Source of the DNA: a virus
Taxonomy: Duplodnaviria > Caudoviricetes
Length of the DNA stretch: 29,159 nt
Reading direction: 5' to 3' (one strand)
IMG/VR virus record: IMGVR_UViG_3300026453_000028
Span: 1 to 29,159 of that record
Each line of letters opens with the position of its first letter. Within the stretch, counting starts at the first letter, position 1. The translations under genes were made by a program, and so were the position numbers. Positions 958-27,900 of the stretch are shown here, piece by piece. The notes under the pieces were generated by a model that was not told the origin of the DNA, did no database searches, and worked only from the letters and a program-made list of their open reading frames with translations.

Positions 958-1437
958 ATGGCAGAATTTGAATTTGCAGGAATGACATTTAAGGGCGGAA
1001 AGGCTGCAGTAGTCTTTACTGCCCTTTCTACTTTAGGAGGGGCTCTCTGGGCCGGCTTTGAGTTTTACAAAGATTATATGGATATGCGAGAGATCGTAGC
1101 AAATATTGATGTAGGAGTAATCGAAGCACGAAATGCACAAATAGAAATTAAACTTGACGAAGCTATTGACTATACGCGCGATATCAAAAATGGACTCAAA
1201 GACGACATCACTCGGATTGAGCGTGTTAATGATAGTACAAGTGCACGAGTTAAAGATATCCAGAGCGAAATTGATGAAAGACTTCGAGAAGTTTCAAACC
1301 TTACTCGAGAAACAGAAAAAGATGTTCGAGATACGATGCGAGACGTGGAGAATCGCATCGAAGCCGATATGGAAAAACTCGAAACAGATCTTGAAGAGAA
1401 ATTACAAAAAGCCTTAGACAACCCGTTAGCGGACTAA
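958..1437 (+). CDS. Membrane-anchored coiled-coil protein
   Basis: N-terminal hydrophobic segment (AAVVFTALSTLGGALWAGF) followed by a long charged helical region. Abuts the previous stop codon. Confidence 0.7.
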   Translation: MAEFEFAGMTFKGGKAAVVFTALSTLGGALWAGFEFYKDYMDMREIVANIDVGVIEARNAQIEIKLDEAIDYTRDIKNGLKDDITRIERVNDSTSARVKDIQSEIDERLREVSNLTRETEKDVRDTMRDVENRIEADMEKLETDLEEKLQKALDNPLAD

Positions 1438-1439
1438 GG

Positions 1440-1483
1440 TACCAAAAAAATATCTTGACTTTGCAACTGGTATGGAGTAGAAT
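1440..1483 (+). promoter_or_regulatory. Sigma70-type promoter P1 for terS, probably leaderless
   Basis: TTGACT (1455-1460), 17-nt spacer, TAGAAT (1478-1483), upstream TACCAAAAAAA. The ATG at 1490 lies at the expected +1. Confidence 0.8.
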
Positions 1484-1489
1484 TGCAAA

Positions 1490-1954
1490 ATGGGTAAAGA
1501 AATCACGACAATATCGCCAGAGGGCTTAGAGGTTGCTAATTGTTATTTACAGTATGGTAATATTCGCGCTGTGTGTGATTTTATGGGCGTGCCTGAAAAT
1601 CAAGTAGTTGAGCTGCTCAACAAGCGCGAAGTCAAGAAGTATATTGACACCGTTTATCTCGATATGGGGTATCGTAACAAAAATAACATTGCATCAGTAT
1701 TAGATGAAATGATTGCAAGTAAACTTGACGAAGCACAAGAAACAGGAGTGTATTCTTCGAAGGATCTTGCAGACCTATTACAAATGGCGCACAAAATGCG
1801 TATGGATGAAATCAAAGCGCAAGCAGATTTACTAAAAGCCGAAAGTACTAATATTCGTAATCAAACAAATGTTCAGATCAACGATGCAGCACTTCCTTTT
1901 GGACAAGGCAACTACGGTAAACTCATGGAAAAGTTGTTAAATGGACCTGAATGA
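1490..1954 (+). CDS. terS: Terminase small subunit, T5-like
   Basis: SPEGLEVANCYL...LDEMIASKLDEAQETG...AHKMRMDE...QTNVQIN matches my recollection of the T5-family TerS. N-terminal HTH-like region; position upstream of terL. Confidence 0.8.
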   Translation: MGKEITTISPEGLEVANCYLQYGNIRAVCDFMGVPENQVVELLNKREVKKYIDTVYLDMGYRNKNNIASVLDEMIASKLDEAQETGVYSSKDLADLLQMAHKMRMDEIKAQADLLKAESTNIRNQTNVQINDAALPFGQGNYGKLMEKLLNGPE

Positions 1955-2195
1955 GCAAACAAAGCGAATGCTTGCAGCAGCAGAAAGAGTTGATAATCTG
2001 GATACGCGAGTACGTGAAATAGAAATAGAAATGGCTCAACACGATGCACAATGTGAAGAGCGTTGGAAAACTACTTTTAATCGTTTAGTGGATATTGAAG
2101 ATACCATGAAACAGATGGAAAGTCGTTTACTTGTAGGAGCAGGAAGTATGATTCTTTTTCTTGCAGGCGTCATTGTGACTTTACTTATGAGATAA
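1941..2195 (+). CDS. Coiled-coil protein with C-terminal transmembrane helix (holin/XhlA-like architecture)
   Basis: Heptad N-terminus (HDAQCEERWK) and terminal hydrophobic helix LLVGAGSMILFLAGVIVTLL. Confidence 0.6.
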   Translation: MDLNEQTKRMLAAAERVDNLDTRVREIEIEMAQHDAQCEERWKTTFNRLVDIEDTMKQMESRLLVGAGSMILFLAGVIVTLLMR

Positions 2196-2410
2196 TGATA
2201 TCAAAAAGAGGACCTACATGGGTTGTTACTTTAGAAGAGGGTCGTGAGATAATTTGTATTTCCGAACAAGTAGCTAAAGATCAACTAGAACAGCATACTA
2301 CAGGTTGGAAGCTTTGGACTCCTCCACAGCTTGAAGATGTACAAGACCTACCACTCCCCGAAGTTCGGGAATACGATAGCATCGAAGAAGCTATCGCAGA
2401 GGAAGACTAA
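2195..2410 (+). CDS. Hypothetical acidic protein
   Basis: TAATG stop/start coupling at both ends. Confidence 0.65.
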   Translation: MISKRGPTWVVTLEEGREIICISEQVAKDQLEQHTTGWKLWTPPQLEDVQDLPLPEVREYDSIEEAIAEED

Positions 2411-2577
2411 TGCCAGCAGGTAAAGGTACTTACGGTAAAAAACGCGGACGTCCCGCGAAGAAAGGGGGTAAAAAGAAGAAGTCAATGGGCGGCTTGACAG
2501 CAGCTCAGAAAAAACTTCCTCCAGCATTGCAAAAAGCAATCATGAAGAAAAAACGTGGCGGTAAAAAGAAAAAGTAA
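2410..2577 (+). CDS. 55-aa highly basic protein with AT-hook-like motif (not in the ORF track)
   Basis: Hand translation MPAGKGTYGKKRGRPAKKGGKKKKSMGGLTAAQKKLPPALQKAIMKKKRGGKKKK. 22 of 55 residues are K/R and none are D/E. TAATG coupling with the upstream gene. Confidence 0.8.
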   Translation: MPAGKGTYGKKRGRPAKKGGKKKKSMGGLTAAQKKLPPALQKAIMKKKRGGKKKK

Positions 2578-2743
2578 GCGCAAAGTCGCTAAAAAACGCC
2601 CCGTGCCTACTAACAAAAAGTTGTATGCACGAGTAAAAGCTGAAGCAAAGCGCAAATTTAAAGTGTACCCTTCAGCGTACGCAAACGGATGGCTAGTAAA
2701 AACTTATAAAGCCAGAGGCGGTAATTACCGCATGGGAAAGTAA
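2555..2743 (+). CDS. Basic 62-aa protein
   Basis: 22 of 62 residues are K/R. GTG start overlaps the upstream gene. Motif YPSAYANGWLVKTYKARGG. Confidence 0.75.
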   Translation: MAVKRKSKRKVAKKRPVPTNKKLYARVKAEAKRKFKVYPSAYANGWLVKTYKARGGNYRMGK

Positions 2744-2744
2744 A

Positions 2745-2825
2745 ATGGATTTTATATTTGGTATGGTAGTAGGTGCATTGCTGCATTGGTCCTGGAAAAA
2801 GTGGGGCCATAAACTAACAGTCTAA
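2745..2825 (+). CDS. 26-aa membrane micro-peptide (not in the ORF track)
   Basis: MDFIFGMVVGALLHWSWKKWGHKLTV fills the gap between its neighbours exactly, with TAATG coupling to 2825. Confidence 0.65.
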   Translation: MDFIFGMVVGALLHWSWKKWGHKLTV

Positions 2826-3112
2826 TGGCTAAACCTCAAAGTGGACTTACTAAATGGTTCAAAGAAAAATGGGTAGATATCTCCCGTCCAAAAAAGGGCG
2901 GGGGTTATCACGCCTGCGGTCGAAAGACTTCTAAAAAAGGAAAATATCCAAAATGCGTTCCTGCAGCAAAAGCAGCTCGTATGACAAAAGCTCAGAAAAA
3001 ATCCGCTATTCGTCGTAAAAGAGCAGCAGGCAATCCAGGAGGCAAGCCGACTATGGTAAAAACATTTACCAAGCGGAAAGCGAGAATGAGACGTGGCGGT
3101 AAGAAAAGGTAA
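2825..3112 (+). CDS. Basic 95-aa protein with two Cys
   Basis: GLTKWFKEKWVDI...CGR...YPKCVP; very K/R rich. Confidence 0.75.
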   Translation: MAKPQSGLTKWFKEKWVDISRPKKGGGYHACGRKTSKKGKYPKCVPAAKAARMTKAQKKSAIRRKRAAGNPGGKPTMVKTFTKRKARMRRGGKKR

Positions 3113-3407
3113 GCGACGAACAAAGAAAAAAGACCCTCGTTTAGCCCGAGCAAAAGTAGCGGGGTTTAACAAACCAAAACGTACTCCGGGCCACCCGAAG
3201 AAGTCCCATATTGTCGTAGCAAAGGTAGGTGACAAAGTCAAAACGATTCGATTTGGGCAACAAGGCGCTAAAACAGCGGGTAAGCCAAAAGCAGGCGAGT
3301 CAGAAGCAATGAAGCGTAAGCGTGCATCTTTCAAAGCACGTCATCGTAAAAACATTGCAAAGGGCAAAATGAGTGCGGCTTATTGGGCCGATAAGGTAAA
3401 ATGGTGA
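3093..3407 (+). CDS. Basic 104-aa protein
   Basis: KVKTIRFGQQG...SFKARH...SAAYWADKVKW; very K/R rich; GTG start overlapping the upstream gene. Confidence 0.75.
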   Translation: MAVRKGKRRTKKKDPRLARAKVAGFNKPKRTPGHPKKSHIVVAKVGDKVKTIRFGQQGAKTAGKPKAGESEAMKRKRASFKARHRKNIAKGKMSAAYWADKVKW

Positions 3408-3805
3408 TGTTCGAGCGCGAAGTTGAAGAACTAAACTCTAGCTGGGCATACAAGTATGATATTGATCAGTATGCTCAACGTGAGTATTGGCAAATCATGA
3501 AAGAGCATCCATATGTAGGAGACTGTGAAGATTACGCACTCACACTCCTTTACTTAATTAGTGGTAAATCTATGTGGAAGTTTTGGTTTTACTTAATTAC
3601 TGGTAAGGCACAGATTCGCAGAGTTATCACAAAAAATGGAGGAGGGCACGCCGTTCTTCGTTTTGGAAAGCACTGGGCAGACAACTGGACTAAAAAGTTT
3701 GTCAAGTGGGAGGAAATGGAAAAGCTAGGACATAAAAAGTATTACTGGTTTTACCTTCCTCAAGACGTAGCATTGAAACTTGCTATGGCTAAGTGGAAAA
3801 AATAA
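3401..3805 (+). CDS. Transglutaminase-like cysteine protease (BTLCP/LapG, peptidase C93-like)
   Basis: GDCEDYA (Cys), GHAVL (His) and WADN (Asp) triad motifs in the order typical of the family. The true start may be 3407 (TGATG). Confidence 0.75.
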   Translation: MVMFEREVEELNSSWAYKYDIDQYAQREYWQIMKEHPYVGDCEDYALTLLYLISGKSMWKFWFYLITGKAQIRRVITKNGGGHAVLRFGKHWADNWTKKFVKWEEMEKLGHKKYYWFYLPQDVALKLAMAKWKK

Positions 3806-4131
3806 TGGACGAAGAGTTGAAAGAAGCTGGTTATCATCCTGCAGACTCAAACGGCGATGGTAAGGTAGATAATGAAGAGCACAGAATGTACCTTGAATTT
3901 AAGCGAAAAGAGCTCGAGGATCAAGACGCAATGCGAGATGCTCAACGAAAGATGACTTGGTTTGCTTTGGCAGGTATGCTACTGTATCCTGCCACAGTAA
4001 TGGCAACTGAGTTAATGGGGTTACACCAAGCTGCAACTATTCTAGGCGATATGGCGGCAGTATACTTTGTCTCTGTAGCCGGTATTGTTGCTGCATTTTT
4101 TGGTGCTCAAGCATGGTCTGGCAAAAAGTAA
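3805..4131 (+). CDS. Two-TM holin-like membrane protein with N-terminal EF-hand loop
   Basis: TAATG start at 3805. DSNGDGKVDNEE is a canonical 12-residue EF loop. Two hydrophobic helices and a basic C-terminus; located near spanins. Confidence 0.6.
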   Translation: MDEELKEAGYHPADSNGDGKVDNEEHRMYLEFKRKELEDQDAMRDAQRKMTWFALAGMLLYPATVMATELMGLHQAATILGDMAAVYFVSVAGIVAAFFGAQAWSGKK

Positions 4132-4406
4132 TACCTTTAGTACTGCTTAGTGGCTGTGTTGCAATGTCTCCTAACCTAGAATCAACAGAAGACCTTGTGA
4201 CCGGCCAGCTTTATTACACATTTGAACTAGGGGTGTCATATCCGAAAAAGAAGTTTATGACACCGGAAGAGTGGCAAGAATACCATTCGGTACCTGATAG
4301 CCAAAAGGAAGCACTATATGCTACTTACAGAGAGCGGGAAGAAATTGAAAAGCGCTGGGAGAATTTTATTGAGAATTGTCTTTTGGCCGGTACGCTGGAT
4401 TGTTAG
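4113..4406 (+). CDS. Putative lipoprotein
   Basis: Short signal with lipobox VLLSGC. Confidence 0.55.
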   Translation: MVWQKVIPLVLLSGCVAMSPNLESTEDLVTGQLYYTFELGVSYPKKKFMTPEEWQEYHSVPDSQKEALYATYREREEIEKRWENFIENCLLAGTLDC

Positions 4407-4587
4407 TTTTCTTTTTAACGAGTGGGAAATAACAATCTGGTATGACCCTAGTAAAAAGACTCAGTATAATTTTAAGTGGGTTGATAAATGTGAAGCAAAG
4501 CATTTAAAAGGAAAACTAACGTCTGGAGAGCCTTTTGAGTTAAAAACTCAAGAGCCTTTTAATTTTCAAATCAAGAAGGTAAAGTAA
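4318..4587 (+). CDS. Hypothetical protein with amphipathic N-terminus (start uncertain)
   Basis: Ends in TAATG coupled to 4587; overlaps the upstream ORF by up to 89 nt. Confidence 0.6.
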   Translation: MLLTESGKKLKSAGRILLRIVFWPVRWIVSFLFNEWEITIWYDPSKKTQYNFKWVDKCEAKHLKGKLTSGEPFELKTQEPFNFQIKKVK

Positions 4588-5009
4588 TGTTTGGAATGAT
4601 TAAAATGCTACCAATTGTGATTCTTCTTGCAGGAGCAGGATATGCATATCATACAACGGTAGTAAGCCAAAAAGATGCAACAATCGCGCGTCTCGAAGCA
4701 AACGCAGTAACTTTAAAAGAAAATGCTATGCGTCTTGAAACCGCATTTGAAAGAGAACAAGTAGCACGAGAGCGATCAGAACAGAACCTACAGTCTCAAC
4801 TAAAAGCAGTAGGAGACTTAACAGAAAAGAACACTGCTATGCAGCAAGAAATGGATGGATACTTATCTATCTTCAAGCGTCATGATATGACTCGTCTTGC
4901 AAGAGCAAAACCTGGGTTAATTGAACCTAGGATTAATAAAGGAACGCAAGCAGTATTTCGTTCCATTGAAGAGGCAAGCCTGGAGGTAGAAAATGCGGAT
5001 TCTCAGTAG
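4587..5009 (+). CDS. Inner-membrane spanin (Rz-like)
   Basis: N-terminal TM helix plus long coiled coil, overlapping a downstream lipoprotein gene. Confidence 0.75.
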   Translation: MFGMIKMLPIVILLAGAGYAYHTTVVSQKDATIARLEANAVTLKENAMRLETAFEREQVARERSEQNLQSQLKAVGDLTEKNTAMQQEMDGYLSIFKRHDMTRLARAKPGLIEPRINKGTQAVFRSIEEASLEVENADSQ

Positions 5010-5424
5010 TGTATTATTATTATCACTCGGAGGATGCTCGCTGCTACAACCGCAACCTCTTCCGGCTCCAGAGCCAATTATTAAAACAGTAACGGAGTAC
5101 AAAACTCTTGAAATATATCAACCTCCGTTACCAAAAGCGATTGACTTACAGGATGTAGAGTTTTTCGTAATTACAGAAAAGAATTTTGAAGAGCAAGTAA
5201 AAAAGCTTGAAAAAATGCAAAGCGGTACTTACGTACTCTTTGGTATTACACCACAAGATTACGAAAACATGGCATATAATTTACAAGAGCTGAAAAGATA
5301 CATTGGTCAGCAAAAAGAAATTATTATTTATTATCGTCAAGCTACACAAGGCGATGAAGACACAGACTCTGAAGATTGGATGGAACAAAATGAAAAAGTT
5401 CTTGAGGATCAAAAACAGGACTAA
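4993..5424 (+). CDS. Outer-membrane spanin (Rz1-like lipoprotein)
   Basis: GGAGG RBS, lipobox LSLGGC, Pro-rich linker, then a helical segment. Confidence 0.75.
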   Translation: MRILSSVLLLSLGGCSLLQPQPLPAPEPIIKTVTEYKTLEIYQPPLPKAIDLQDVEFFVITEKNFEEQVKKLEKMQSGTYVLFGITPQDYENMAYNLQELKRYIGQQKEIIIYYRQATQGDEDTDSEDWMEQNEKVLEDQKQD

Positions 5425-5427
5425 ATT

Positions 5428-6732
5428 ATGGCTGTTCAAATTAGTCGAGCAGATGTATCTTGCGGAGAGATACTAGATTTACAATCTGAGACACGCTTTC
5501 TAAAACTTCCCGCAGAAGATTACTTGGATCTGCTGGGAGTAACTCCTCTTCCATCGCAAAAAGCAATTATAAATGCGATCAATAACCCCAAGTATCGTTT
5601 TGTCTGTGCAGCAGTTTCTAGGCGTCAAGGCAAAACATACATCGCCAACATTATAGGGCAGTTGGTATCACTAGTGCCCGGTTCTAACATTTTGATAATG
5701 TCTCCTAACTACTCGCTGTCTCAGATTTCTTTCGACTTGCAAAGAAATTTAATCAAGCATTTTGACTTAGAGGTAGCAAAAGACAATGCAAAAGATAAAG
5801 TTATTGAGCTAACAAACGGCTCTACGGTTCGAATGGGCTCAGTAAACCAAGTTGATTCTTGTGTAGGTAGAAGCTACGATTTAATTATATTTGACGAGGC
5901 GGCGTTGGCAGACGGTAAAGATGCCTTTAACGTAGCACTTCGACCTACTTTGGATAAAGAAAACTCTAAAGCGATCTTTATTTCAACTCCACGGGGCAGG
6001 AACAACTGGTTTGCCGAGTTTTTCGACAGAGGATTTAATGATGAATTTCCTGAATGGTGCTCGATACGAGCTACTTATAAGGATAATCCGCGAATGTCTG
6101 AAATGGATATACAAGAAGCTAAAAAGTCTATGTCCGATTCAGAATTTAGGCAGGAATATGAAGCGGACTTTAACACTTATGAAGGCCAAATTTGGAACTT
6201 TAATCACGAAGAGTGTATCTCTAATAATGAAGAGCTTGATACTCGTCGCATGGATGTATTTGCTGGTCTCGACGTTGGTTATCGTGACCCAACTGCATTT
6301 GTTGTCATAGCTTATGATTGGGACGAGGAAAAGTATTACGTTTTAGATGAGTACCTCGATGCTGAGAAGACCACCGAGCAACATGCCGCTGTAATTCGAC
6401 AACTATCTAACAAATGGGACATTGATTACATTTATATAGATTCCGCAGCACAGCAAACTCGATTTGACTTCGCACAAAATTACGATATTAGTACTGTAAA
6501 TGCGAAGAAATCAGTATTAGATGGAATCGCACAAGTAGCAGGAATTGTAGACAACGATTCCATGCTTGTCGATCAACGATGCGGTGAAGTACTATCTTGC
6601 CTTGATCAATATCAATGGGATCCTAACCCTAATCTTGCAAGAGAAAAACCAAAACACAATCGAGCATCGCATATGGCAGATGCTTTACGGTATGCACTAT
6701 ATTCATTCGAAACAACTCAGAGTGGGTTTTAA
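5428..6732 (+). CDS. terL: Terminase large subunit
   Basis: Walker A VSRRQGKT, Walker B LIIFDEAA, motif III ISTP, nuclease motifs GLDVG and HMADALRY. Confidence 0.97.
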   Translation: MAVQISRADVSCGEILDLQSETRFLKLPAEDYLDLLGVTPLPSQKAIINAINNPKYRFVCAAVSRRQGKTYIANIIGQLVSLVPGSNILIMSPNYSLSQISFDLQRNLIKHFDLEVAKDNAKDKVIELTNGSTVRMGSVNQVDSCVGRSYDLIIFDEAALADGKDAFNVALRPTLDKENSKAIFISTPRGRNNWFAEFFDRGFNDEFPEWCSIRATYKDNPRMSEMDIQEAKKSMSDSEFRQEYEADFNTYEGQIWNFNHEECISNNEELDTRRMDVFAGLDVGYRDPTAFVVIAYDWDEEKYYVLDEYLDAEKTTEQHAAVIRQLSNKWDIDYIYIDSAAQQTRFDFAQNYDISTVNAKKSVLDGIAQVAGIVDNDSMLVDQRCGEVLSCLDQYQWDPNPNLAREKPKHNRASHMADALRYALYSFETTQSGF

Positions 6733-6739
6733 AGAGACC

Positions 6740-6783
6740 TACAAAAAATAGTGTTTGACAATTTATGTTACAAGGGCTATAAT
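6740..6783 (+). promoter_or_regulatory. Perfect sigma70 promoter P2 for the HNH-portal-head operon, probably leaderless
   Basis: TTGACA (6755-6760), 17-nt spacer, TATAAT (6778-6783). The ATG at 6789 lies at the expected +1. Confidence 0.9.
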
Positions 6784-8349: not shown

Positions 8350-8643
8350 ATGGCAGTACGTCAAAAACAAAAAGTTTTAGATATTGCTCACGAACATTTT
8401 GAGAAGCACAAGCTTCCTTTAGATGTAGACTATAAAACATATCTGGCTAAGGTAGGACCTACAGATGCGATTCATGCTATTTCTGTAAAGAGAAGTTTTA
8501 AAGCATGGAAATACCTACTTCACGCTTTAAAAGTTAAGCATCCAGAACTAATGGAAGCTCCAAAGCCAAAGCCAAAACCTGCTCCGAAGCCTAAAGCTTC
8601 TCCGAGCAAGCCTGCAAAAGCAGAAGCAAAGAGTGAAGACTAA
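8350..8643 (+). CDS. Hypothetical head-region protein with Pro/Lys/Ala tail
   Basis: Good RBS; coupled to both neighbours; APKPKPKPAPKPK low-complexity tail. Confidence 0.7.
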   Translation: MAVRQKQKVLDIAHEHFEKHKLPLDVDYKTYLAKVGPTDAIHAISVKRSFKAWKYLLHALKVKHPELMEAPKPKPKPAPKPKASPSKPAKAEAKSED

Positions 8644-10646
8644 TGGAAAAGATTTTTAACCTTACTTCTACGTTTAAAGCACTCAATGAAGACGACGATG
8701 GTAGCGTCCACATTTGCGGAATGGCTAGCACTGCTGACTTCGACCGAGCTGGAGATACCATTTCAGCCGAAGCATGGACCAAGGGTGGCCTTGGTAACTT
8801 CGAAAAGAATCCTATCATTCTTTTCAATCACGATTATAACAAGCCTATCGGACGCGCTACAGGACTTAAAGTCACTGAAAACGGTCTTGAACTTAAGGCT
8901 AAAATTTCTAAGTCTGCGCCCGATCATGTCGCGCAGCTTGTAAAAGAAGGCATTCTTGGAGCATTTTCTGTTGGTTTCCGAGTCAAGGATGCTGATTACT
9001 TATCGGAAACTGACGGATTAAAGATAAAGGATGCTGAGTTGTTTGAAGTATCAGTGGTATCGGTACCTTGTAACCAAGCAGCTACTTTCTCTCTCGCGAA
9101 ATCATTTGATTCTATCGAAGAGTATAATGAGTTCAAAAAAACTTTCACTAATAGTGTAGATCTAGCCGGTCAGTCTCTGGCTAAAGATGAAGATTCATTT
9201 GAAGCTAGTGATGCACCGGATGGAACTGAAAAGTCAGTTCAAAAGGAGATAACAATGTCGGAAGTAAAAACTCCCGAAATCGACCTGGAGGCTTTTGCTA
9301 AGAAGGTAGCGGATGAGACTGCTGCTAAAATCGCAATTCGTCAGGCCGAAGAAAAAGCCGCTGTTGAAGCAGAAGCTAAAGCAGCACAAGAAGCAGTAGA
9401 AGCTGAAGCCGCAAAGCAGGCTGAAGTTGAGACTGTAATCAAAACTGGTATTGAGTCAGGTGCTGAGCGCCTCTTGGCCGACGTCGAAGCGAAGCTCGCT
9501 GAGAAAGATGCTAAGATTGAGGAAGTACTTTCTCAATATAAGACTGACCTCGAAGAGAAGAATGCTGAAATCACTGCTATGCGTGATTCAAAGCGTGTAT
9601 TCGCTGATCGTACCGAGTCTGGCAACATTTCAAAGTGGGGCAAGGACTTTATGTATGGCCACCTTCTAGGTGTAATGACTGGAAAAGGTTGGGAAACTAA
9701 CTACTCTAAGAGCCTTATGGAAAAAGCAGGTATCAACTATGCAGCTAATGCTGGTGATATTGCTCAAGAAGTCTCTACTGCAATCGAGAAGGAAATCATG
9801 CTCGAGCTTAAGCTCGCTCAAGCTTTCCGTGAGATCACAATTAACTCACAGACTCAAGTATTGCCAATCCAGACAGATGCAGGTCCTGCAGCTTGGGGCT
9901 CAAACACTGATACCGCAGGTAACTTGGAGAACCGTCCTCAAGTCACTAACGTACAGTACAATGCTAAGCAAGTAATCCTGAAAGCAACTCGATTGATCTC
10001 GACTACTTTCATGGACAACAACATTGACGAAGAAGTTCTTGTTAACTTGATGCCAATGCTTGTTGAGTCAGTTGCACGTGCACACGCTCGCGCAGTAGAC
10101 GGAGCTCTTCTTACTGGTACTTCCGGTGGTTCAGAAGCCTTTGATGGCCTCGAAGCTCTTGCAGGCAACAATAAGTTTACAACTTCAGTGGCAGCAGCCG
10201 GTACTGGCGTTGTTGACGCAGCAGACTTCCTCGGAGCACGTAAGCTTATGGGTAAGTATGGCATGATGCCAGAAGATCTGATCTATGTTGTATCTCAGAA
10301 GCGTTACTACGATCTAATTGCTGATGCAGGCTTTGCCGACATCACAGACGTAGGCTCTGATATGGCTACTAAGATTACAGGTTCTGTAGGTTCAATCTTT
10401 GGAACTCCAGTAGTTGTATCTGATCAGCTCGAAGCAGAAGGCGCAAACGCCTCTGTAGGTTATGCTGTTAACGTTCGTAACCACGTAATCCCACGTCTCC
10501 GCGGTGTATCCGTAGAGCAAGATTACGAAGTACTCAATCAGCGTCGAGTAATCGTTGCTAGCCAGTCACTTGGCTTCAACCAGCTCGTTGCTAATAACGG
10601 TACTACTGACGTATCTGTTGTTAAGCTTGTCCAAGCGGCATCTTAA
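8643..10646 (+). CDS. Prohead protease (HK97/S78-type) fused in frame to the major capsid protein
   Basis: Protease motifs ILFNHD, AFSVGF and LFEVSVVSVPCNQAA in the first ~160 aa. No stop before the HK97-fold capsid region. Confidence 0.92.
   Translation: MEKIFNLTSTFKALNEDDDGSVHICGMASTADFDRAGDTISAEAWTKGGLGNFEKNPIILFNHDYNKPIGRATGLKVTENGLELKAKISKSAPDHVAQLVKEGILGAFSVGFRVKDADYLSETDGLKIKDAELFEVSVVSVPCNQAATFSLAKSFDSIEEYNEFKKTFTNSVDLAGQSLAKDEDSFEASDAPDGTEKSVQKEITMSEVKTPEIDLEAFAKKVADETAAKIAIRQAEEKAAVEAEAKAAQEAVEAEAAKQAEVETVIKTGIESGAERLLADVEAKLAEKDAKIEEVLSQYKTDLEEKNAEITAMRDSKRVFADRTESGNISKWGKDFMYGHLLGVMTGKGWETNYSKSLMEKAGINYAANAGDIAQEVSTAIEKEIMLELKLAQAFREITINSQTQVLPIQTDAGPAAWGSNTDTAGNLENRPQVTNVQYNAKQVILKATRLISTTFMDNNIDEEVLVNLMPMLVESVARAHARAVDGALLTGTSGGSEAFDGLEALAGNNKFTTSVAAAGTGVVDAADFLGARKLMGKYGMMPEDLIYVVSQKRYYDLIADAGFADITDVGSDMATKITGSVGSIFGTPVVVSDQLEAEGANASVGYAVNVRNHVIPRLRGVSVEQDYEVLNQRRVIVASQSLGFNQLVANNGTTDVSVVKLVQAAS
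9255..10646 (+). CDS. Major capsid protein precursor from an internal start (463 aa; delta domain plus HK97 fold)
   Basis: AAAAGGAGATAACAATG: strong RBS before in-frame Met205, followed by an Ala/Glu/Lys coiled-coil delta domain. Confidence 0.85.
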   Translation: MSEVKTPEIDLEAFAKKVADETAAKIAIRQAEEKAAVEAEAKAAQEAVEAEAAKQAEVETVIKTGIESGAERLLADVEAKLAEKDAKIEEVLSQYKTDLEEKNAEITAMRDSKRVFADRTESGNISKWGKDFMYGHLLGVMTGKGWETNYSKSLMEKAGINYAANAGDIAQEVSTAIEKEIMLELKLAQAFREITINSQTQVLPIQTDAGPAAWGSNTDTAGNLENRPQVTNVQYNAKQVILKATRLISTTFMDNNIDEEVLVNLMPMLVESVARAHARAVDGALLTGTSGGSEAFDGLEALAGNNKFTTSVAAAGTGVVDAADFLGARKLMGKYGMMPEDLIYVVSQKRYYDLIADAGFADITDVGSDMATKITGSVGSIFGTPVVVSDQLEAEGANASVGYAVNVRNHVIPRLRGVSVEQDYEVLNQRRVIVASQSLGFNQLVANNGTTDVSVVKLVQAAS

Positions 10647-21196: not shown

Positions 21197-21927
21197 TGGC
21201 ACAGTTTAGTGAATTTCAAAATGTTCTGCCAGATCCCAACAACAGTATTGGATCTGCAGGACAATCTGCAGGAACTGCGGGCCCTGGCTATAAATCTGTA
21301 AAGATGACGTCAGAGCAGCCTTATATGCGCTCTCGTACAAACTCGGGCAGACTCATTGCACGCGCAACTGCGTTTCATAAGTGGAAAATAAATATTACTT
21401 ATAATCCGATGACTCGTGCAGAGTTTGAGCCAATTTATACGTTTCTTTTACAGCAACGGGGTCCATTAAATCCATTTTATGTTTCTCTGCCGCAGTATCG
21501 GGTGCCTCAAGATAGTAACTTTGCTACTCATGTTGCAAGTAATGATCTTGCAGTAACTTCGGCACACGCGGCAGGTAAAACAATTATGACTCTTGATGGA
21601 GGTTCGGATGGAAACTATACAATTGCTGCCGATAACACTCCTACCCCAGGAGACCTATTTACTGTTGCAGGCACAGACTCCAATCATGAAAAAGCATACA
21701 TGGTTACTCGAGTAGAGACCCCTACAGACTATAAAGACACTGCTCCTTCTGCGAATACTGTTCGTATTCATTTTGTTCCTGGACTAGCTCGTGCAGTTGC
21801 AAATAATGATGAAGTAAAGTTCCACAATCCATTTATCAAAGTTGTTCGAGTGGGCAACATTGAAGAATATTCTTTAAATACAAATAATTTGTATCAGTTC
21901 TCTTTGAATCTTGAGGAAGTACAGTAA
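21196..21927 (+). CDS. Distal tail protein (T5 pb9-like)
   Basis: LPDP...PGYKSV...WKINITYNPMT; directly after the TMP. Confidence 0.82.
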   Translation: MAQFSEFQNVLPDPNNSIGSAGQSAGTAGPGYKSVKMTSEQPYMRSRTNSGRLIARATAFHKWKINITYNPMTRAEFEPIYTFLLQQRGPLNPFYVSLPQYRVPQDSNFATHVASNDLAVTSAHAAGKTIMTLDGGSDGNYTIAADNTPTPGDLFTVAGTDSNHEKAYMVTRVETPTDYKDTAPSANTVRIHFVPGLARAVANNDEVKFHNPFIKVVRVGNIEEYSLNTNNLYQFSLNLEEVQ

Positions 21928-24900
21928 TGCCAATTAGAAGTTTAAATGCAGATTTAAGAGACGCGCTCCTTCGAGAAGACTCATTCGTATACGCACATCT
22001 CGTAAAGTTTGAGCGCCCAAAAAATATTGACGGTGATGAGCCAGAACGTGCTCTTACTGATTACATCTATTTAACTGATGGATCCTTTGATATCAGCTAT
22101 GATGATACTGATGATAGTACAAGCAACCCTCAGACATATATTGCAAATAAAGTACTAAAAGTTGGAGCAGTTTCAGAAACTATTGAAGCTCGAGCTACAA
22201 ATTTTACTTTACAAATTGATGCAACTGCTCTAAACACCACTCTTGAAGATAGTCTAACAATTACAACAAGCACAATTACTTCTTCAGAAAATCTTGTTGC
22301 AGAAGGGTTTCGAGAAGGTGATATTGTTGAGCTTGTCGCAAGTAGTGGCTCAAACAAAGGAAAACTTGTACGAATAAACTCTTTTAGTACAAACAATACT
22401 GTTGCAAATGTAACCGCGCTTGAAAATGCTTTAACGGCAGAGACAGGAACTTATACTCTTACATTCAAGAATCCAGAAGTAGAAGGGATAATTACAGACC
22501 GTACTGGAAATGGATACGCTAGGTATATTAATAGAGATGTATTTGTTTATAAAGCATTTATCAATCCAGAGACAGGAGAGATAATCGGAGAGCCTTATAC
22601 TCTTTTTAAAGGGATTATCGCCGGAGGAAAGATAGCAGAAGATCCAATGAAAGGATCAACTGTAACTTGGAATATTACTAGCCATTGGGGAGATTTTACT
22701 CGAGTACAGGGCCGTCTTACTTCAGACTCTCATCACCGAGCACTTGATCAAAATAATATTCCAGATCCAGAAGCAGCGATTCGTCCTGCGTATACATCTG
22801 ACTTAGGATTTTTACATAGCGAACAAGCTATTAACTTGGTAGCAATCTATCAGGTAAAAGAAACCCGTACCAAGATGAAAATGAAGCGCAAGTGGTATGG
22901 TTCCAAAAAATATAAGTTAATTGAGTATCAAGTAGAAGTAGATAGAGAAGCAGATTTACGCTTTAACTTAGAAGCAAAGTATCTACCTGTTGTGTATGGC
23001 GTAAACAAAATTGATAGTATTCCTGTATTTGTAGATACTTTAAATAATGACGCAAAACAAGTTTTTGTGGCTTACGCTATCTGTGAAGGACAGATTGGCG
23101 GACTATATGATATCTACTTTGACGATACTTCTTCTATATGTATTGATGAAAATGATAAAGATACTCGATCTACTCAAACGGCAGAAAACACAATTGATGT
23201 ACTTTGCCAAGGTAGAGCAGACAGAGGAGATGTACTTACTTCCCAAAATATTAACTCCTCTAATCTGGATACTGCGCTATCCGGCCTATACTCTTGGCCC
23301 TTTGATGGTAGTTGGGCAGATAGAAGAGAATTTGCAGAAAGTTTCAGACGAGAGTATCCTTACTTTACGCCTTTAGCAGACTCTTCTATTAGTGGAGGTG
23401 CAACTTCTCAAGGGGCAGGTATTACTCATGAAAAAGGCACAAAGTTTACTACTCCCATTGACGCAGTACTTACTTTTCATGCAGGTAAATCAGATCAAAA
23501 AGCAAACAGCACTCTTCTATCAAACTCAAGTAATTTTAAAATTGCAACAGATTACTATACAGGTGACGATCCATACTGGGGAGCCCAACATCAGTTATTA
23601 GATACTGCTTATACTGTAGCAAAGTATACAATCGGAGAAGGAGAGACTACTATTCCTTCTCTGGATTTTGTAGTACGTGGAAAAGGCGTAAACTGCTATA
23701 ACTATGATTTTTCATATGCGGATGATCTTGCACACACGGATGATTCTACCGCTTTCAATATAGGCCAAAAAGTAAATCTCAAGGCAACAGATGACGATTC
23801 TTTACTTCAGAGTAATATTCAGATAGCAGATATTTATACAATTACAAATATAAATGGAAATTTAGAAGCCAGAATAAGATTCGCAACAAAACCAGCATTA
23901 GGCACAAAAACTGCGTTTTACTTGACAGACGGTACAAACAACTATCATTTACTTACTTATGACCACGAAGAAAATACTGGAATTGTTCCTGCAATTTTGC
24001 AAGAAGAAATAACAAGTCAAGCAAACACAACAGTTAGCAGTGGAACAGGCATAGACGTAACAGTAGGAAATGGAAGTCCTAGTAGTGCAATGGAATTTGC
24101 ATTAACTCAGTCAGACTTTGCTTCTATTGCTGCAGAGGTAACAGGCACTGCCCCCGGGTTCCGTTCAGATCAACTTCATCAGTTTTATCTGCCAGAAAAC
24201 TATACACCTAATTCAGGCATTATTCAGGACATAGGAACAACTCAAACAGATGCGGAAGACGTAGTAAGTGAATTTATTACAGTACTAGATGGGATACAGC
24301 TTGCGAGTACTGCAAGCAGTACAAACGATGCTTATAATCTACGCTTTATAGAAGTAACTCATAACTTTGAAGATGGTAGCTCCCGTATTGAAAACAGAGT
24401 AATTGCTGATTATGATGGCACTACTAAAGTGGCAATGGTTAATACTCCTTTTGATCAAGCTCCTGCTCAAGGTGATACTTATAAGATTTTCTCTACTCAA
24501 CCAGATATACGAGTAAGTACTAACCCAGCCATGCAGCTTCTCGACTACTTGGTAGATGACAGATTCGGTCGAGCACTAGACATTGATATTGATGTTGATA
24601 AAGAATCTTTTTTCTCTGCTGCACGAGAATGCGATACTCGTTCAAATATATTTATGGTTGCAGAGAGTCAGCCTACAAATGGAGATGAGTATTATTATGA
24701 AGCTTTTAGTGGCGGAAAAGTTCTTTGGCAGGGTACTGTTAAAAGTAGTTCTGCTGTAACAATTTATACAGGACTCACACACTATCTTGTAGAATTTGAA
24801 AATGTATTTGGAAAGATTGCTCATAGACATGAAAACTGGAAATCATGGTATCAGGGAGAACTTTATTACTACGGTGGTAAGCTACATAAAGTTCCTAATA

Positions 24901-27900
24901 CTCATACTAATGGGAATAGTATTACTTATTCATCAGGGGCAAACTTAGTAGCAAATAGCATACAAATAAAGAAAGTTGGCTCTTCTGATACCTTAAAAAT
25001 TGATATTGCTAGAAAAGATACTAACGATGATGGAGTTATAGATGGCCCAAGTAAGGTATTTACCTTTGACGGGAACCCTATAGTTAAAAAAGTAACTGCA
25101 AATCATGGGGATGCAGGGGCTACTTCTGGATATAGTTTATACGATGCTGACGATGTAAAATATTGGCGCTATGTGGGCTGGGAAGCTCAAAACCAGCGAC
25201 ATGCTACACGTCATCAAACAAACGCAATTATTGATACTGCCGCACCTATTTTTGACAATATTAATAGTATGTTGAAACATTTCAACGGAATATTACGATA
25301 TTCTGCAGGTAAATATAATCTTTCTGTAATGACAGAAGCAGGGCCTTCAACTTCTGTAACTGTAGATGGAACAACTTATAAAGTAGAAGAGATTGACGAA
25401 GGTGATATTATTGGCTCAATCTCTGTAGAAGATGCAGGACAAAAAGGAACATATAATTCTGTTGACGTAAGTATTAATGACCCTCAAAACCGTTTTGAAG
25501 GTCGTAGTGTTAATATGTTTAACTCAGAGTACTTAAAGCAAGATAGAATGGTTCCTCGAAAAGGAAACTTTCAGGCTCCCTATGTTACAAACTACTTTAA
25601 CGCTAGAATAAATGCAAAACAGTATCTTGATCAGTCACGCTCAGGGTTAAAGATTAACTTTACAATGGGACCTCGAGGAGCTTTGCTTCTTGCGGGTGAA
25701 GTAATACGAATTACTTACCCTCGTTTTGGATGGACGAATAAAACTTATAGAATTACTAATCTTACTGTAAAGCAGGACTGTTTAGTACAGATTACAGCGG
25801 AAGAGCACGAAGATAGCACGTATCTTATTGCAGCTTCTGACAGAGGTGCAATTACTCCAGCAGAAGGAGGACTCGCTCCAAATGCAAAGCCACCTTCTCC
25901 TTCAGCATTAACAGCTACTAATAATAATCGAGGAGGTATTGTACTTAATTGGACAAATTCTAGTTCGTTTAATGTTGATACTCATCAAACTCAAATATGG
26001 AGATCAACTTCAAACTCTGTAGTAAATGGAGAACTGATAGCGACAGTTGACGGCACAACCTTTACAGATCCAATCGTAGAGGGGGGAGCAAATACTCGAT
26101 ACTATTGGATTCGTCATGTTGTAACTACTCAAACTAGAGGAAACACAGGCACACAACAGAAGAAAGTATTTTCAAGCTATCATCCTAGTAATTTATTTAA
26201 TGGAGTTACTGGTGTTTCGGAAGACAACCGAGGAGAAAAGGGTGAAATAGGCTCCAAAGGAAGTGCTGGTACAAAAGGTGAAACTGGAGACGATGGAACT
26301 TCTGTATCAATTATTGGAAATATTGCAACAGTAGGAGCAACTCCTCAAACTGCTTTAAATAATGCTTTCTCGTCTGCACAAGCAGGGGAAGGTGTTATTG
26401 CAGATGACACAGGTAATCTGTGGGTATATAATGGTACAAGCTGGAACAATGTAGGACAAATAAAAGGGGACAAAGGAAATACAGGGTCCAAGGGCATTAT
26501 AGGCCCTAAAGGAGAGGATGGTACAAAAGGAGATACTGGTACAAAAGGAGATACTGGTACAAAAGGTACAAAAGGTACAACAGGTATAAAAGGTACAAAA
26601 GGAGTAGCAGGAGCTAAAGGTACTCCTGGGGGTATCGGCGAAAAAGGTAGTAAAGGTGGAGAAGGTGATAAAGGTGGAGTCGGCGATAAAGGAGATACTG
26701 GCGATAAAGGATTTAAAGGCGAGATAGGCCCTAAGGGAGACCAAGGTCTCAAAGGAGACACTGGAGATAAAGGCCTCAAAGGCGCTATAGGTGTTAAAGG
26801 CGATCAAGGTCTTAAAGGTACTACAGGTGAACAAGGCGCTAAAGGTGATGTAGGTGTTAAAGGTGATCAAGGCCTTAAAGGTATTGTTGGTGAACAAGGC
26901 GCTAAAGGTGCTGTAGGTGTTAAAGGTGACCAAGGGCTTAAAGGTACTACAGGCGAGCAAGGCGCTAAAGGTGATGTAGGCGTTAAGGGCGATCAGGGTC
27001 TAAAGGGTACTACTGGGGATAAAGGTGTCAAAGGTGCTATAGGCGTTAAAGGTGATCAAGGCCTTAAAGGTACTACAGGTGAGCAAGGCGCTAAAGGTGA
27101 TGTAGGTGTTAAAGGCGATCAAGGTCTTAAAGGTATTGTTGGTGAACAAGGCGCTAAAGGTGCTATAGGCGTTAAAGGTGATCAAGGCCTCAAAGGTATT
27201 GTTGGGGAACAAGGCGCTAAAGGTGATGTAGGTGTTAAAGGTGACCAAGGCCTCAAAGGTACTACAGGCGAGCAAGGCGCTAAAGGTGCTGTAGGTGTTA
27301 AAGGTGATCAAGGTCTTAAAGGTATTGTCGGAGAGCAAGGTGCCAAAGGTGCTATAGGCGTTAAGGGCGATCAGGGTCTCAAGGGTACTGCGGGCGACAA
27401 AGGCCTCAAGGGGGATTTAGGGCCGAAAGGAGACCAAGGGCCTAAAGGTGGTGTAGGAGATGCGGGTGCAAAAGGCGTACTAGGTGTTAAAGGTGACCAA
27501 GGTGATAAAGGTGGAGAAGGTGATAAAGGTCTTAAGGGTGATTTAGGACCGAAAGGAGACCAAGGGCCTAAAGGAGGCGTGGGGGATACCGGGGCTAAGG
27601 GCTCTACAGGTGCCAAAGGTACTACAGGTCCAAAGGGTCTAGGAGGAGACGCAGGCGATAAAGGCACTAAAGGAGAAACAGGTCCTAAAGGCGGAACAGG
27701 AATTAAAGGCGATCCTGGCGAAGATGTACTTATTATTTACTATGATGGCCTTAATGACGATCTCTTCAAGCCGCCAGTTCTTTCTGATTTAACACTGTCT
27801 GGAACCCAAGCAGCATCAGGCAGTATTGCAGATTCAGGATTATTTAGTGTTACAAATCGTGGCTTAGATGTCGTAATGTCTTGTGACGTTATTCTTCCAG

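What the first reader, a model, noticed from the sequence alone, without database searches (positions are those of the whole stretch)
2410..3805. Cluster of four protamine/histone-like basic mini-proteins plus a cysteine protease in the packaging operon: candidate DNA-condensing core and maturation system
Seen: four proteins of 55, 62, 95 and 104 aa, about one-third or more K/R with almost no acidic residues, downstream of the terS promoter and followed directly by a Cys-His-Asp protease. Three carry Gly-Gly motifs in basic context (KKGGKK, SMGGL, KRGGKK, ARGGNY, KKGGGY, NPGGKP, RRGGKK). Known: adenovirus and ASFV core proteins are matured by cysteine proteases cutting at Gly-Gly, C39 peptidases cut after double-Gly, and T5 has no such cluster. 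Inference: these are virion-internal or nucleoid/RNA-binding proteins, possibly processed by the adjacent protease. This is my best candidate for an undescribed system.
Basis: inference. Interest (0 to 1): 0.8.

Follow-up and report, generated by a model that had tools for sequence, protein, structure and literature searches.

The report
Phage basic mini-protein cargo cassette
A marine T5-like phage carries four tiny, highly positively charged genes between its two DNA-packaging genes, three of them widespread in unrelated aquatic viruses; their products likely travel inside the capsid bound to the DNA, and the neighbouring predicted cysteine enzyme comes and goes independently in relatives, so it probably does not process them.

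Summary
In detail: four ORFs with 34-40% K/R, seven Gly-Gly runs, then a Cys-His-Asp protein, between terS and terL of an uncultured marine T5-like phage. The maturation system does not hold. The enzyme is a BTLCP/LapG-type (C93) protein, not adenain, ASFV-type or C39. It is in only 27 of 64 relatives carrying the 62, 95 and 104 aa genes, and is absent from a 97%-complete relative with all four. Internal Gly-Gly motifs persist without it; most C-terminal ones are the next gene's overlapping GTG-GCG start.

The basic proteins are the real feature: two halves of DUF5872 and phrog_7595, drawn from a pool of about a dozen interchangeable basic families. The 104 aa module is 80-90% identical across unrelated aquatic phages. 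When fused, it often follows T4-type xxE protease motifs. A cyanomyophage polyprotein with distant homologues of the 62 and 95 aa modules lies between terS and terL and was detected in purified S-SM1 virions. Best reading: capsid-carried nucleic-acid-binding cargo (0.5); untested, and these stand-alone copies lack a loading tag. This scan found the cassette before on another genome (e1-6014057).

The parts
1455..1483 (+). sigma70-like site upstream of terS (10 of 12 match); putative start of the late operon
   Evidence: consensus match only
1490..1954 (+). terminase small subunit; left border of the variable interval
   Evidence: phrog_3802 E 1.6e-38
2410..2577 (+). A55: low-complexity basic protein, net +22, RGRP (AT-hook-like core, motif recalled); seen only in the T5-like lineage
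   Evidence: no Pfam/PHROG/NCBIfam hit; 53 of 99 relatives; no isolate match; 0 of 62 non-T5-like loci (117)
2555..2743 (+). B62: N-terminal half of DUF5872; GTG start overlaps the end of A55
   Evidence: PF19197 positions 1-39, 43.1 bits; phrog_27331 (6); G55-G56 invariant in 19 homologues (110)
2745..2825 (+).
   Evidence: 19 of 99 relatives (40)
2825..3112 (+). C95: C-terminal half of DUF5872
   Evidence: PF19197 positions 53-103, 23.1 bits, below cut-off; phrog_23735 E 2e-27 (6); alignment (103)
3093..3407 (+). D104: phrog_7595 module, the most constant member; GTG start overlaps the end of C95
   Evidence: phrog_7595 E 1.4e-41; 95 of 99 relatives (40); about 10,000 IMG/VR stretches estimated (8); 941 longer proteins hold it (16)
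3401..3805 (+). BTLCP / peptidase C93-like protein, C42-H83-D94, no signal peptide; accessory gene
   Evidence: PF06035 27.0 bits = cut-off; 4u65 chain E, E 5.5e-4 (26); NCBIfam LapG E 0.0026, far below cut-off (94); 36 of 99 relatives (40)
3793..5424 (+). downstream membrane and lysis genes: small membrane protein, lipoprotein-like ORF, unknown ORF, two Rz-like spanins
   Evidence: phrog_739, phrog_812; translations (2)
5428..6732 (+). terminase large subunit; right border of the interval
   Evidence: 48-49% identical to T5-like isolates (10)

Best explanation
The four genes are a cassette of small basic proteins between terS and terL that are likely made late, likely bind nucleic acid and are probably carried inside the capsid with the genome, while the adjacent Cys-His-Asp protein is an independently gained and lost BTLCP-family gene that probably does not cut them. 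Shown: gene layout, family identities, interchangeability, uncoupling from the enzyme, and fusion contexts elsewhere. Inferred: late co-transcription, entry into the head (by sticking to DNA or to the acidic scaffold part of the capsid precursor, since these copies carry no tag), and a job of shielding DNA charge or of acting in the next host after ejection. In T4-like phages the same modules are strung into acidic polyproteins and would be freed by the prohead serine protease at xxE sites; here they are made as free units and would need no maturation.
For: (1) D104 is in 95 of 99 sampled terS-terL intervals; about a dozen other basic families swap in and out, typically 4-5 basic ORFs per interval. 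(2) Of the best 120 of 941 longer D104-bearing proteins, D was located in 119; it is C-terminal in 104, and 60 of 109 non-N-terminal cases follow an xxE motif against 22% background (rows are related, 49 distinct 10-mers). T4 gp21 cuts after L/I-X-E and frees basic internal proteins (PMC9026906, passages). (3) P0033, P0048 and P0111 carry C, B and D in one chain, each preceded by a hydrophobic-x-E site. (4) S-SM1 SSM1_115 (T4-GC119) lies between gp16 and gp17, was detected in purified virions with 13 counts (PMC3037559 Table S8), and holds B-like (36.8 bits) and C-like (22.7 bits) stretches that 0 of 200 local shuffles reach. (5) Uncoupling: enzyme in 27 of 64 intervals with B+C+D; at least 12 gains or losses on a quick tree, 6 forced by well-supported branches; absent from G003 (94.6 kb, 97% complete, all four genes; positive control rang in 74); 0 of 10 isolates with modules; 0 of 62 non-T5-like D loci; D in 0 of 5 enzyme-bearing records. 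BTLCP is reported as a frequent, horizontally moved viral accessory gene (PMC11283719, passages).
Against: No virion or binding data exist for these proteins. The stand-alone copies have no acidic residues, no xxE site and no recognisable loading tag; the only [EQ]K[ALS] site lies inside A55. The S-SM1 link is distant (hhalign probability 25% and 51%; the C match needed profile broadening, 2 of 200 shuffles reached it before). The peptides were not mapped to the modules, D has no homologue there, and GC119 was not detected in the third data set of Table S8 (Syn9 by my reading; column heads were lost in the text). 80-90% identity of D104 across unrelated phages is more than charge shielding should need. 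A55 and the C95 tail GG are enriched where the enzyme is present (p=0.002 and 0.004).
Confidence: 0.5

Rival explanations
1. The proteins stay in the infected cell and bind a conserved host structure (ribosome, tRNA or nucleoid) late in infection; they are not packaged.
For: D104 is 80-90% identical across phages of many lineages and 53-81% in isolates on roseobacters, cyanobacteria and SAR116, which suits a conserved structured target. There is no loading tag. In isolates the gene often lies near lysozyme/amidase or unannotated genes rather than head genes.
Against: Fusion behind xxE and other recurring boundary motifs and the S-SM1 virion detection point to the head. The only PDB sequence matches to ribosomal uL24 are insignificant (E 0.49 or worse).
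Confidence: 0.3
2. One reading: a DNA-condensing core matured at Gly-Gly by the adjacent cysteine protease, as in adenovirus or ASFV.
For: The enzyme directly follows D104 in 27 of 35 intervals that have both. The triad is intact. GG runs exceed shuffles (P=0.016). C95 tail GG is in 15 of 27 with the enzyme vs 8 of 40 without (p=0.004), and 15 of 21 vs 3 of 11 inside one clade (p=0.027). GG lies in the linker just before fused D in 36 of 109 proteins of other lineages.
Against: The family is C93, with no C5, C48 or C39 hit at E<=0.1; LapG cuts Ala108|Ala109 (PMC3032545). GG with vs without enzyme: B 27/28 vs 40/41; C KKGG 27/27 vs 38/38; C NPGG 27/27 vs 36/40; A KKGG 6/21 vs 3/16. 18 of 22 A-tail and 20 of 23 C-tail GGs are the overlapping GTG-GCN start of the next gene read in another frame, and become RGS, SGR or RAR when that gene's codons change. 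D104, the constant member, has no GG. The KKGG-linker phage G013 (95% complete) has no BTLCP.
Confidence: 0.05
3. The proteins belong to the neighbouring lysis/envelope module and act as cationic membrane- or LPS-disrupting peptides.
For: They sit upstream of membrane proteins and spanins, a 26 aa hydrophobic ORF lies among them, and D homologues neighbour lysozyme or amidase genes in S-EIVl and ICBM2.
Against: Complete two-component spanins are already present; the modules are fused into large acidic polyproteins in T4-like phages; none has an export signal by inspection of the translations.
Confidence: 0.1

Closest known systems
Cyanomyophage T4-GC119 (phrog_727; S-SM1 SSM1_115, S-SM2 SSM2_109), called 'structural protein' in PMC3037559 Table S8
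   Same: Lies between terS and terL; holds B62-like and C95-like modules (S-SM2 also a further cassette family, 51 bits); virion-detected in S-SM1.
   Different: One acidic-linker polyprotein with xxE sites; no D104 homologue (its C-terminal DUF6321 did not match); function unknown.
Pfam DUF5872 (PF19197) and PHROG phrog_7595; cassette relatives include DUF5824 (PF19141)
   Same: B62 and C95 match the two halves of DUF5872; D104 is phrog_7595; a swap-in member is DUF5824. A DUF5872 gene is listed in the giant virus CpV-BQ1 (PMC12085832, passage).
   Different: All uncharacterised. Here DUF5872 is two genes with a small hydrophobic ORF between them.
Phage T4 internal proteins IPI, IPII, IPIII
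   Same: Small, basic, several hundred copies in the head, ejected into the host (PMC9026906, passages).
   Different: No sequence match found; IPs have a 10-19 residue capsid-targeting propeptide removed by gp21, which these stand-alone proteins lack.
BTLCP / peptidase C93 (LapG of Pseudomonas and Legionella; viral BTLCP accessory genes)
   Same: Cys-His-Asp triad, GDCEDYA motif, PF06035 at cut-off, weak match to 4u65.
   Different: 134 aa, no signal peptide, no LapD-like hit among the 30 window ORFs scanned; substrate unknown.
Adenovirus adenain / ASFV pS273R core maturation; C39 double-glycine peptidases (properties recalled, not read here)
   Same: Cysteine protease next to basic proteins with Gly-Gly.
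   Different: No family hit; catalytic order Cys-His-Asp rather than His-Asp/Glu-Cys of clan CE; enzyme and putative substrates are not co-inherited.

Membership tests
DUF5872 (PF19197) | Score over Pfam cut-off 27.5 bits: B62 | tested here: met
   43.1 bits, model positions 1-39
DUF5872 (PF19197) | Score over Pfam cut-off: C95 | tested here: inconclusive
   23.1 bits, E 1.2e-4, positions 53-103; 18 of 30 Atlas hits are clusters in which a share of members carry the family
phrog_7595 | Full-length profile match: D104 | tested here: met
   E 1.4e-41, positions 3-96 of 96
BTLCP / peptidase C93 | Conserved Cys-His-Asp triad | tested here: met
   C42, H83, D94 invariant in 33 sequences
BTLCP / peptidase C93 | Pfam PF06035 cut-off | tested here: met
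   27.0 bits at cut-off 27; borderline; most of 70 homologues carry PF06035
LapG equivalog | NCBIfam NF045674 cut-off; periplasmic export signal | tested here: not met
   17 vs 320 bits; no hydrophobic N-terminus
BTLCP / peptidase C93 | Proteolytic activity and specificity | not testable with these tools
   needs an enzyme assay
Adenain / ASFV pS273R Gly-Gly maturation system | Clan CE protease (C5, C48), His-Asp/Glu-Cys order (recalled) | tested here: not met
   no such Pfam hit at E<=0.1; order is Cys-His-Asp
Adenain / ASFV pS273R Gly-Gly maturation system | Protease co-inherited with its core substrates | tested here: not met
   27 of 64; absent from 97%-complete G003 (73) and 10 of 10 isolates (75)
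Adenain / ASFV pS273R Gly-Gly maturation system | GG sites kept only where the protease is present | tested here: not met
   internal GG equal with and without; the C95 tail GG is enriched (p=0.004-0.027) but is an overlap product in 20 of 23
C39 double-glycine peptidase | C39 domain; N-terminal GG leader peptides (recalled) | tested here: not met
   no C39 hit; GG positions are internal or C-terminal and variable in A55
T4-type internal proteins | Small and basic | tested here: met
T4-type internal proteins | N-terminal targeting propeptide ending in L/I-X-E | tested here: not met
   absent in the window's four proteins; present before fused homologues
T4-type internal proteins | Present in the mature virion | not testable with these tools
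   only a distant polyprotein homologue is on record
Histones / protamines | Histone fold or protamine family match | tested here: not met
   no Pfam, PHROG or NCBIfam hit of that kind; D104 model too weak to judge the fold

The most novel reading that the evidence does not exclude
Aquatic DNA viruses, from podo-, sipho- and myophages to giant viruses, share a toolkit of about a dozen small basic domains that are loaded into the capsid and ejected with the genome to grip a conserved host target such as the ribosome or to chaperone incoming DNA. Each lineage loads them with its own head tag (xxE, xxK|A, WxLLK or KGG linkers), and this T5-like lineage ships them as free, tag-less genes between terS and terL.
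Probability: 0.25. Interest if true: 0.75.

Novelty: new variant of a known kind. Interest (0 to 1): 0.45.

Why it matters
D104 alone occurs in an estimated 10,000 IMG/VR stretches and in cultured roseophages, cyanophages and HMO-2011, with no assigned function. If these modules are capsid cargo, some of the commonest unknown genes of aquatic viruses gain a role, and whether tailed phages carry basic core proteins becomes directly testable in existing isolates. The negative result is also useful: adjacency of a BTLCP gene and Gly-Gly motifs here does not make an adenovirus-like maturation system.

Tried and rejected
Structure of D104: mean pLDDT 54, pTM 0.34; Foldseek against PDB gave no match at E<=0.001; not used as evidence. 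The viral fold library was not searched. B62 plus C95 complex prediction: no answer, score 0.00, no evidence either way. PDB sequence search with the D alignment: best E 0.45, chloroplast uL24 rows at E 0.49-5.1 are not significant. D104 vs DUF6321 of T4-GC119: no homology (46-161 of 200 shuffles reached the score). D104 to DUF5754: one Atlas cluster with 11% of members only, a lead. D104 to phrog_220 (minor head protein and DNA pilot): weak, E 1.3e-4. The first B62 GG pattern caught the YPSA motif by mistake; that row was dropped and the tail count used. A55 GG patterns failed to match 19 and 18 of 56 rows, which are outside those counts. GG-processing protease in the KKGG-linker phage G013: no BTLCP and no cysteine-protease Pfam hit among 24 of its proteins. 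In G003, 52 of 82 listed ORFs were scanned: peptidase hits were only S78, NlpC/P60 (tail) and M15. A constant neighbourhood for the enzyme: not found (lysozyme in L118/L119, tRNAs, RNA ligase, tail fibre genes). RNA runs: contigs of 4 of 4 seawater metatranscriptomes cover the cassette, but cannot show strand or level and may hold DNA; the 17 strong holders are all 2018 seawater and may be one campaign. The profile search over cluster representatives was not available, so the most distant relatives of D104 are unexplored. Literature searches that found no description of the cassette or of a function.

Full report
Setting. The window is the late module of an uncultured T5-like phage: terS, terL (48-49% identical to T5-like isolates), portal, a fused S78 protease-capsid gene and T5-type tail genes. 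It is a 29,159-base virus record, about 50% complete. Seventeen seawater metatranscriptomes hold at least half of the sampled words of 1400-5500, and contigs of the four laid cover the cassette; this shows a marine, current sequence, not an expression level.

Observation. The four basic ORFs, their composition, the seven GG motifs and the Cys-His-Asp ORF are as described. K+R is 34-40% against at most 22% in the 20 other ORFs examined. GG runs exceed shuffles modestly (7 vs 3.3, P=0.016). Substitutions in relatives fall mainly at third codon positions. A 26 aa hydrophobic ORF at 2745-2825 splits the cluster and was missed.

What the proteins are. B62 and C95 match the first and second halves of Pfam DUF5872 (43.1 and 23.1 bits), D104 is phrog_7595, and A55 matches nothing. 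From 270 loci I took 161 complete terS-terL intervals, reduced to 106 clusters at 95% identity, of which 99 were reached by terS scans. Those scans keep the best 80 hits, so near relatives are over-represented. D104 is in 95 of 99, B62 in 66, C95 in 64, A55 in 53; B and C part company in only 2. The interval holds a changing set of basic ORFs, mostly 4-5 per interval, from about a dozen credible families (where some small clusters are wrong-frame ORFs), one of them DUF5824. Outside this lineage D104 occurs in an estimated 10,000 IMG/VR stretches and in 49 isolate records. In 62 non-T5-like D loci, 16 carry another cassette family on the same strand, and phage C72C1 has D, B and C close together.

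The enzyme. It scores at the Pfam cut-off for BTLCP/C93, its profile finds 4u65 at E 5.5e-4 and 4fgo at 0.065 (that these are LapG structures is recalled, the NCBIfam LapG hit is), and no C5, C48 or C39 family appears. LapG cuts between Ala108 and Ala109 of LapA (PMC3032545, passages). BTLCP was the most frequent accessory gene in river viruses, with a tree discordant from terL (PMC11283719, passages). It has no signal peptide.

Co-occurrence test. The enzyme is in 36 of 99 intervals and in 27 of 64 with B, C and D. A quick terS+terL tree needs at least 12 changes, 6 forced by branches with at least 95% support; the trait is clustered (shuffled mean 28.4), so simple tables are confounded by kinship. 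It is not elsewhere in nine cassette-lineage records of 30-97% completeness, including G003 (94.6 kb, 97%), which has all four genes with their internal GGs; a positive control rang. It is absent from 10 of 10 isolates with modules and from 62 of 62 non-T5-like D loci within 4 kb. Conversely 0 of 5 enzyme-bearing records hold D and 0 of 4 hold DUF5872. Against this reading: where both occur the enzyme directly follows D in 27 of 35, and A55 is associated with it (p=0.002).

Gly-Gly test. With vs without enzyme: B62 27/28 vs 40/41; C95 KKGG 27/27 vs 38/38; C95 NPGG 27/27 vs 36/40; A55 KKGG 6/21 vs 3/16; SMGG 14/21 vs 6/17. The B62 pair is invariant in 19 homologues down to 40% identity, so it is part of the domain. 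The C95 KKGG loop is replaced in more distant homologues. The two C-terminal RGG motifs are the next gene's GTG-GCG-G start read in another frame: 18 of 22 and 20 of 23 tail GGs sit there, and relatives read RGS, SGR or RAR. Where these genes have their own ATG they begin MAA or MAV, which supports the GTG starts. I read it as kinship plus overlap but did not correct for phylogeny.

Evidence on location. 941 longer proteins contain D104. In the best 120, D was located in 119, is C-terminal in 104, and 60 of 109 non-N-terminal cases follow an xxE motif against 22% background (related rows). Of the others, 20 follow xxK|AKKK, 17 KKGG and 5 WxLLK; 36 of 109 have GG in the linker. T4 gp21 cuts after L/I-X-E and releases basic internal proteins (PMC9026906, passages). 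That xxK|A resembles HK97/T5 protease sites is recalled. Three proteins string C, B and D together behind hydrophobic-x-E sites. S-SM1 SSM1_115 (T4-GC119) lies between gp16 and gp17 and was detected in purified virions with 13 counts (PMC3037559: passages, section 26 and supplement file 1 part 3 plus search rows). It holds B-like and C-like stretches (36.8 and 22.7 bits after two rounds, 0 of 200 shuffles; hhalign E 7.8e-4 and 1.5e-4). The same table lists a cytidylyltransferase-domain protein in the virion (25 counts), and that domain heads P0033 and P0048; orthology was not tested. Limits: peptides are unmapped, GC119 was missed in the third data set, and supplement files 2, 3 and the slide file were not read.

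How it most likely works. Inferred: the cassette is transcribed late from the terS promoter, with overlapping starts coupling translation. The products, net +104 per set, bind DNA and are enclosed in the head. Shielding a tenth of the phosphates of a 95-kb genome would take about 190 sets (arithmetic), comparable with T4 internal protein copy numbers. They need no cutting because each is already a free module. The high conservation of D104 suggests a specific target beyond bulk charge, either in the head or after ejection. The cytoplasmic alternative stays open (0.3) because these copies lack any tag. The BTLCP gene is a separate passenger of the same variable interval.

Comparison and novelty. 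It works like T4-type internal cargo but is not a member (no targeting propeptide, no sequence match). The parts are catalogued families without function. Searches for the family names returned only listings (PMC12085832 passage; PMC8715426 gave no passage in its main text), and searches found no description of the cassette; most subscription journals are outside the library. This scan reported the same cassette on another genome (e1-6014057) with a like reading, which is not independent support; my reading was stated before that look-up. Verdict: real, widespread and untested; new variant of a known kind; interest 0.45.

Noticed in passing
window 8643-10646: The S78 prohead protease and the major capsid protein are one 667 aa ORF (also 682 aa in G003, L289:10822-12870); in T5 they are separate genes (recalled).
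   Followed up: partly
window 8350-8643: 97 aa basic ORF (K+R 0.22) with a PK-repeat tail between portal and capsid genes; no Pfam, PHROG or NCBIfam hit.
   Followed up: no
window 21927-29159: Tail protein of more than 2,400 aa with long collagen-like G-x-K repeats; runs off the window.
   Followed up: no
window 6755-6783: Perfect sigma70 consensus TTGACA-17-TATAAT before the HNH and portal genes; contig depth in four RNA runs is higher beyond it, though contigs cannot rank genes.
   Followed up: partly
L278:9054-10642 and L286-L287 (G013): A podovirus-like phage fuses B-like, C-like and D modules with KGG/TGG linkers, and similar xx[EK]GG motifs occur in other late proteins, including an 1,857 aa tail-lysozyme protein. 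Possible lineage-specific head tag or cleavage motif; no protease found among 24 proteins scanned.
   Followed up: partly
P0025, P0027, P0092, P0094, P0098: D104 fused behind a WxLLK motif, in two cases joined to a C95-like domain.
   Followed up: no
L118:3992-4863 and L119:2851-3725: In phages of another lineage the BTLCP gene overlaps a lysozyme-like gene just after phoH; in the window it precedes membrane and spanin genes. A lysis-related role is possible but other contexts differ.
   Followed up: partly
   Followed up: no
L288:6029-6409 and L288:14032-14631 (G003): The near-complete relative encodes a NifU/IscU-like protein and a polyphosphate kinase 2.
   Followed up: no
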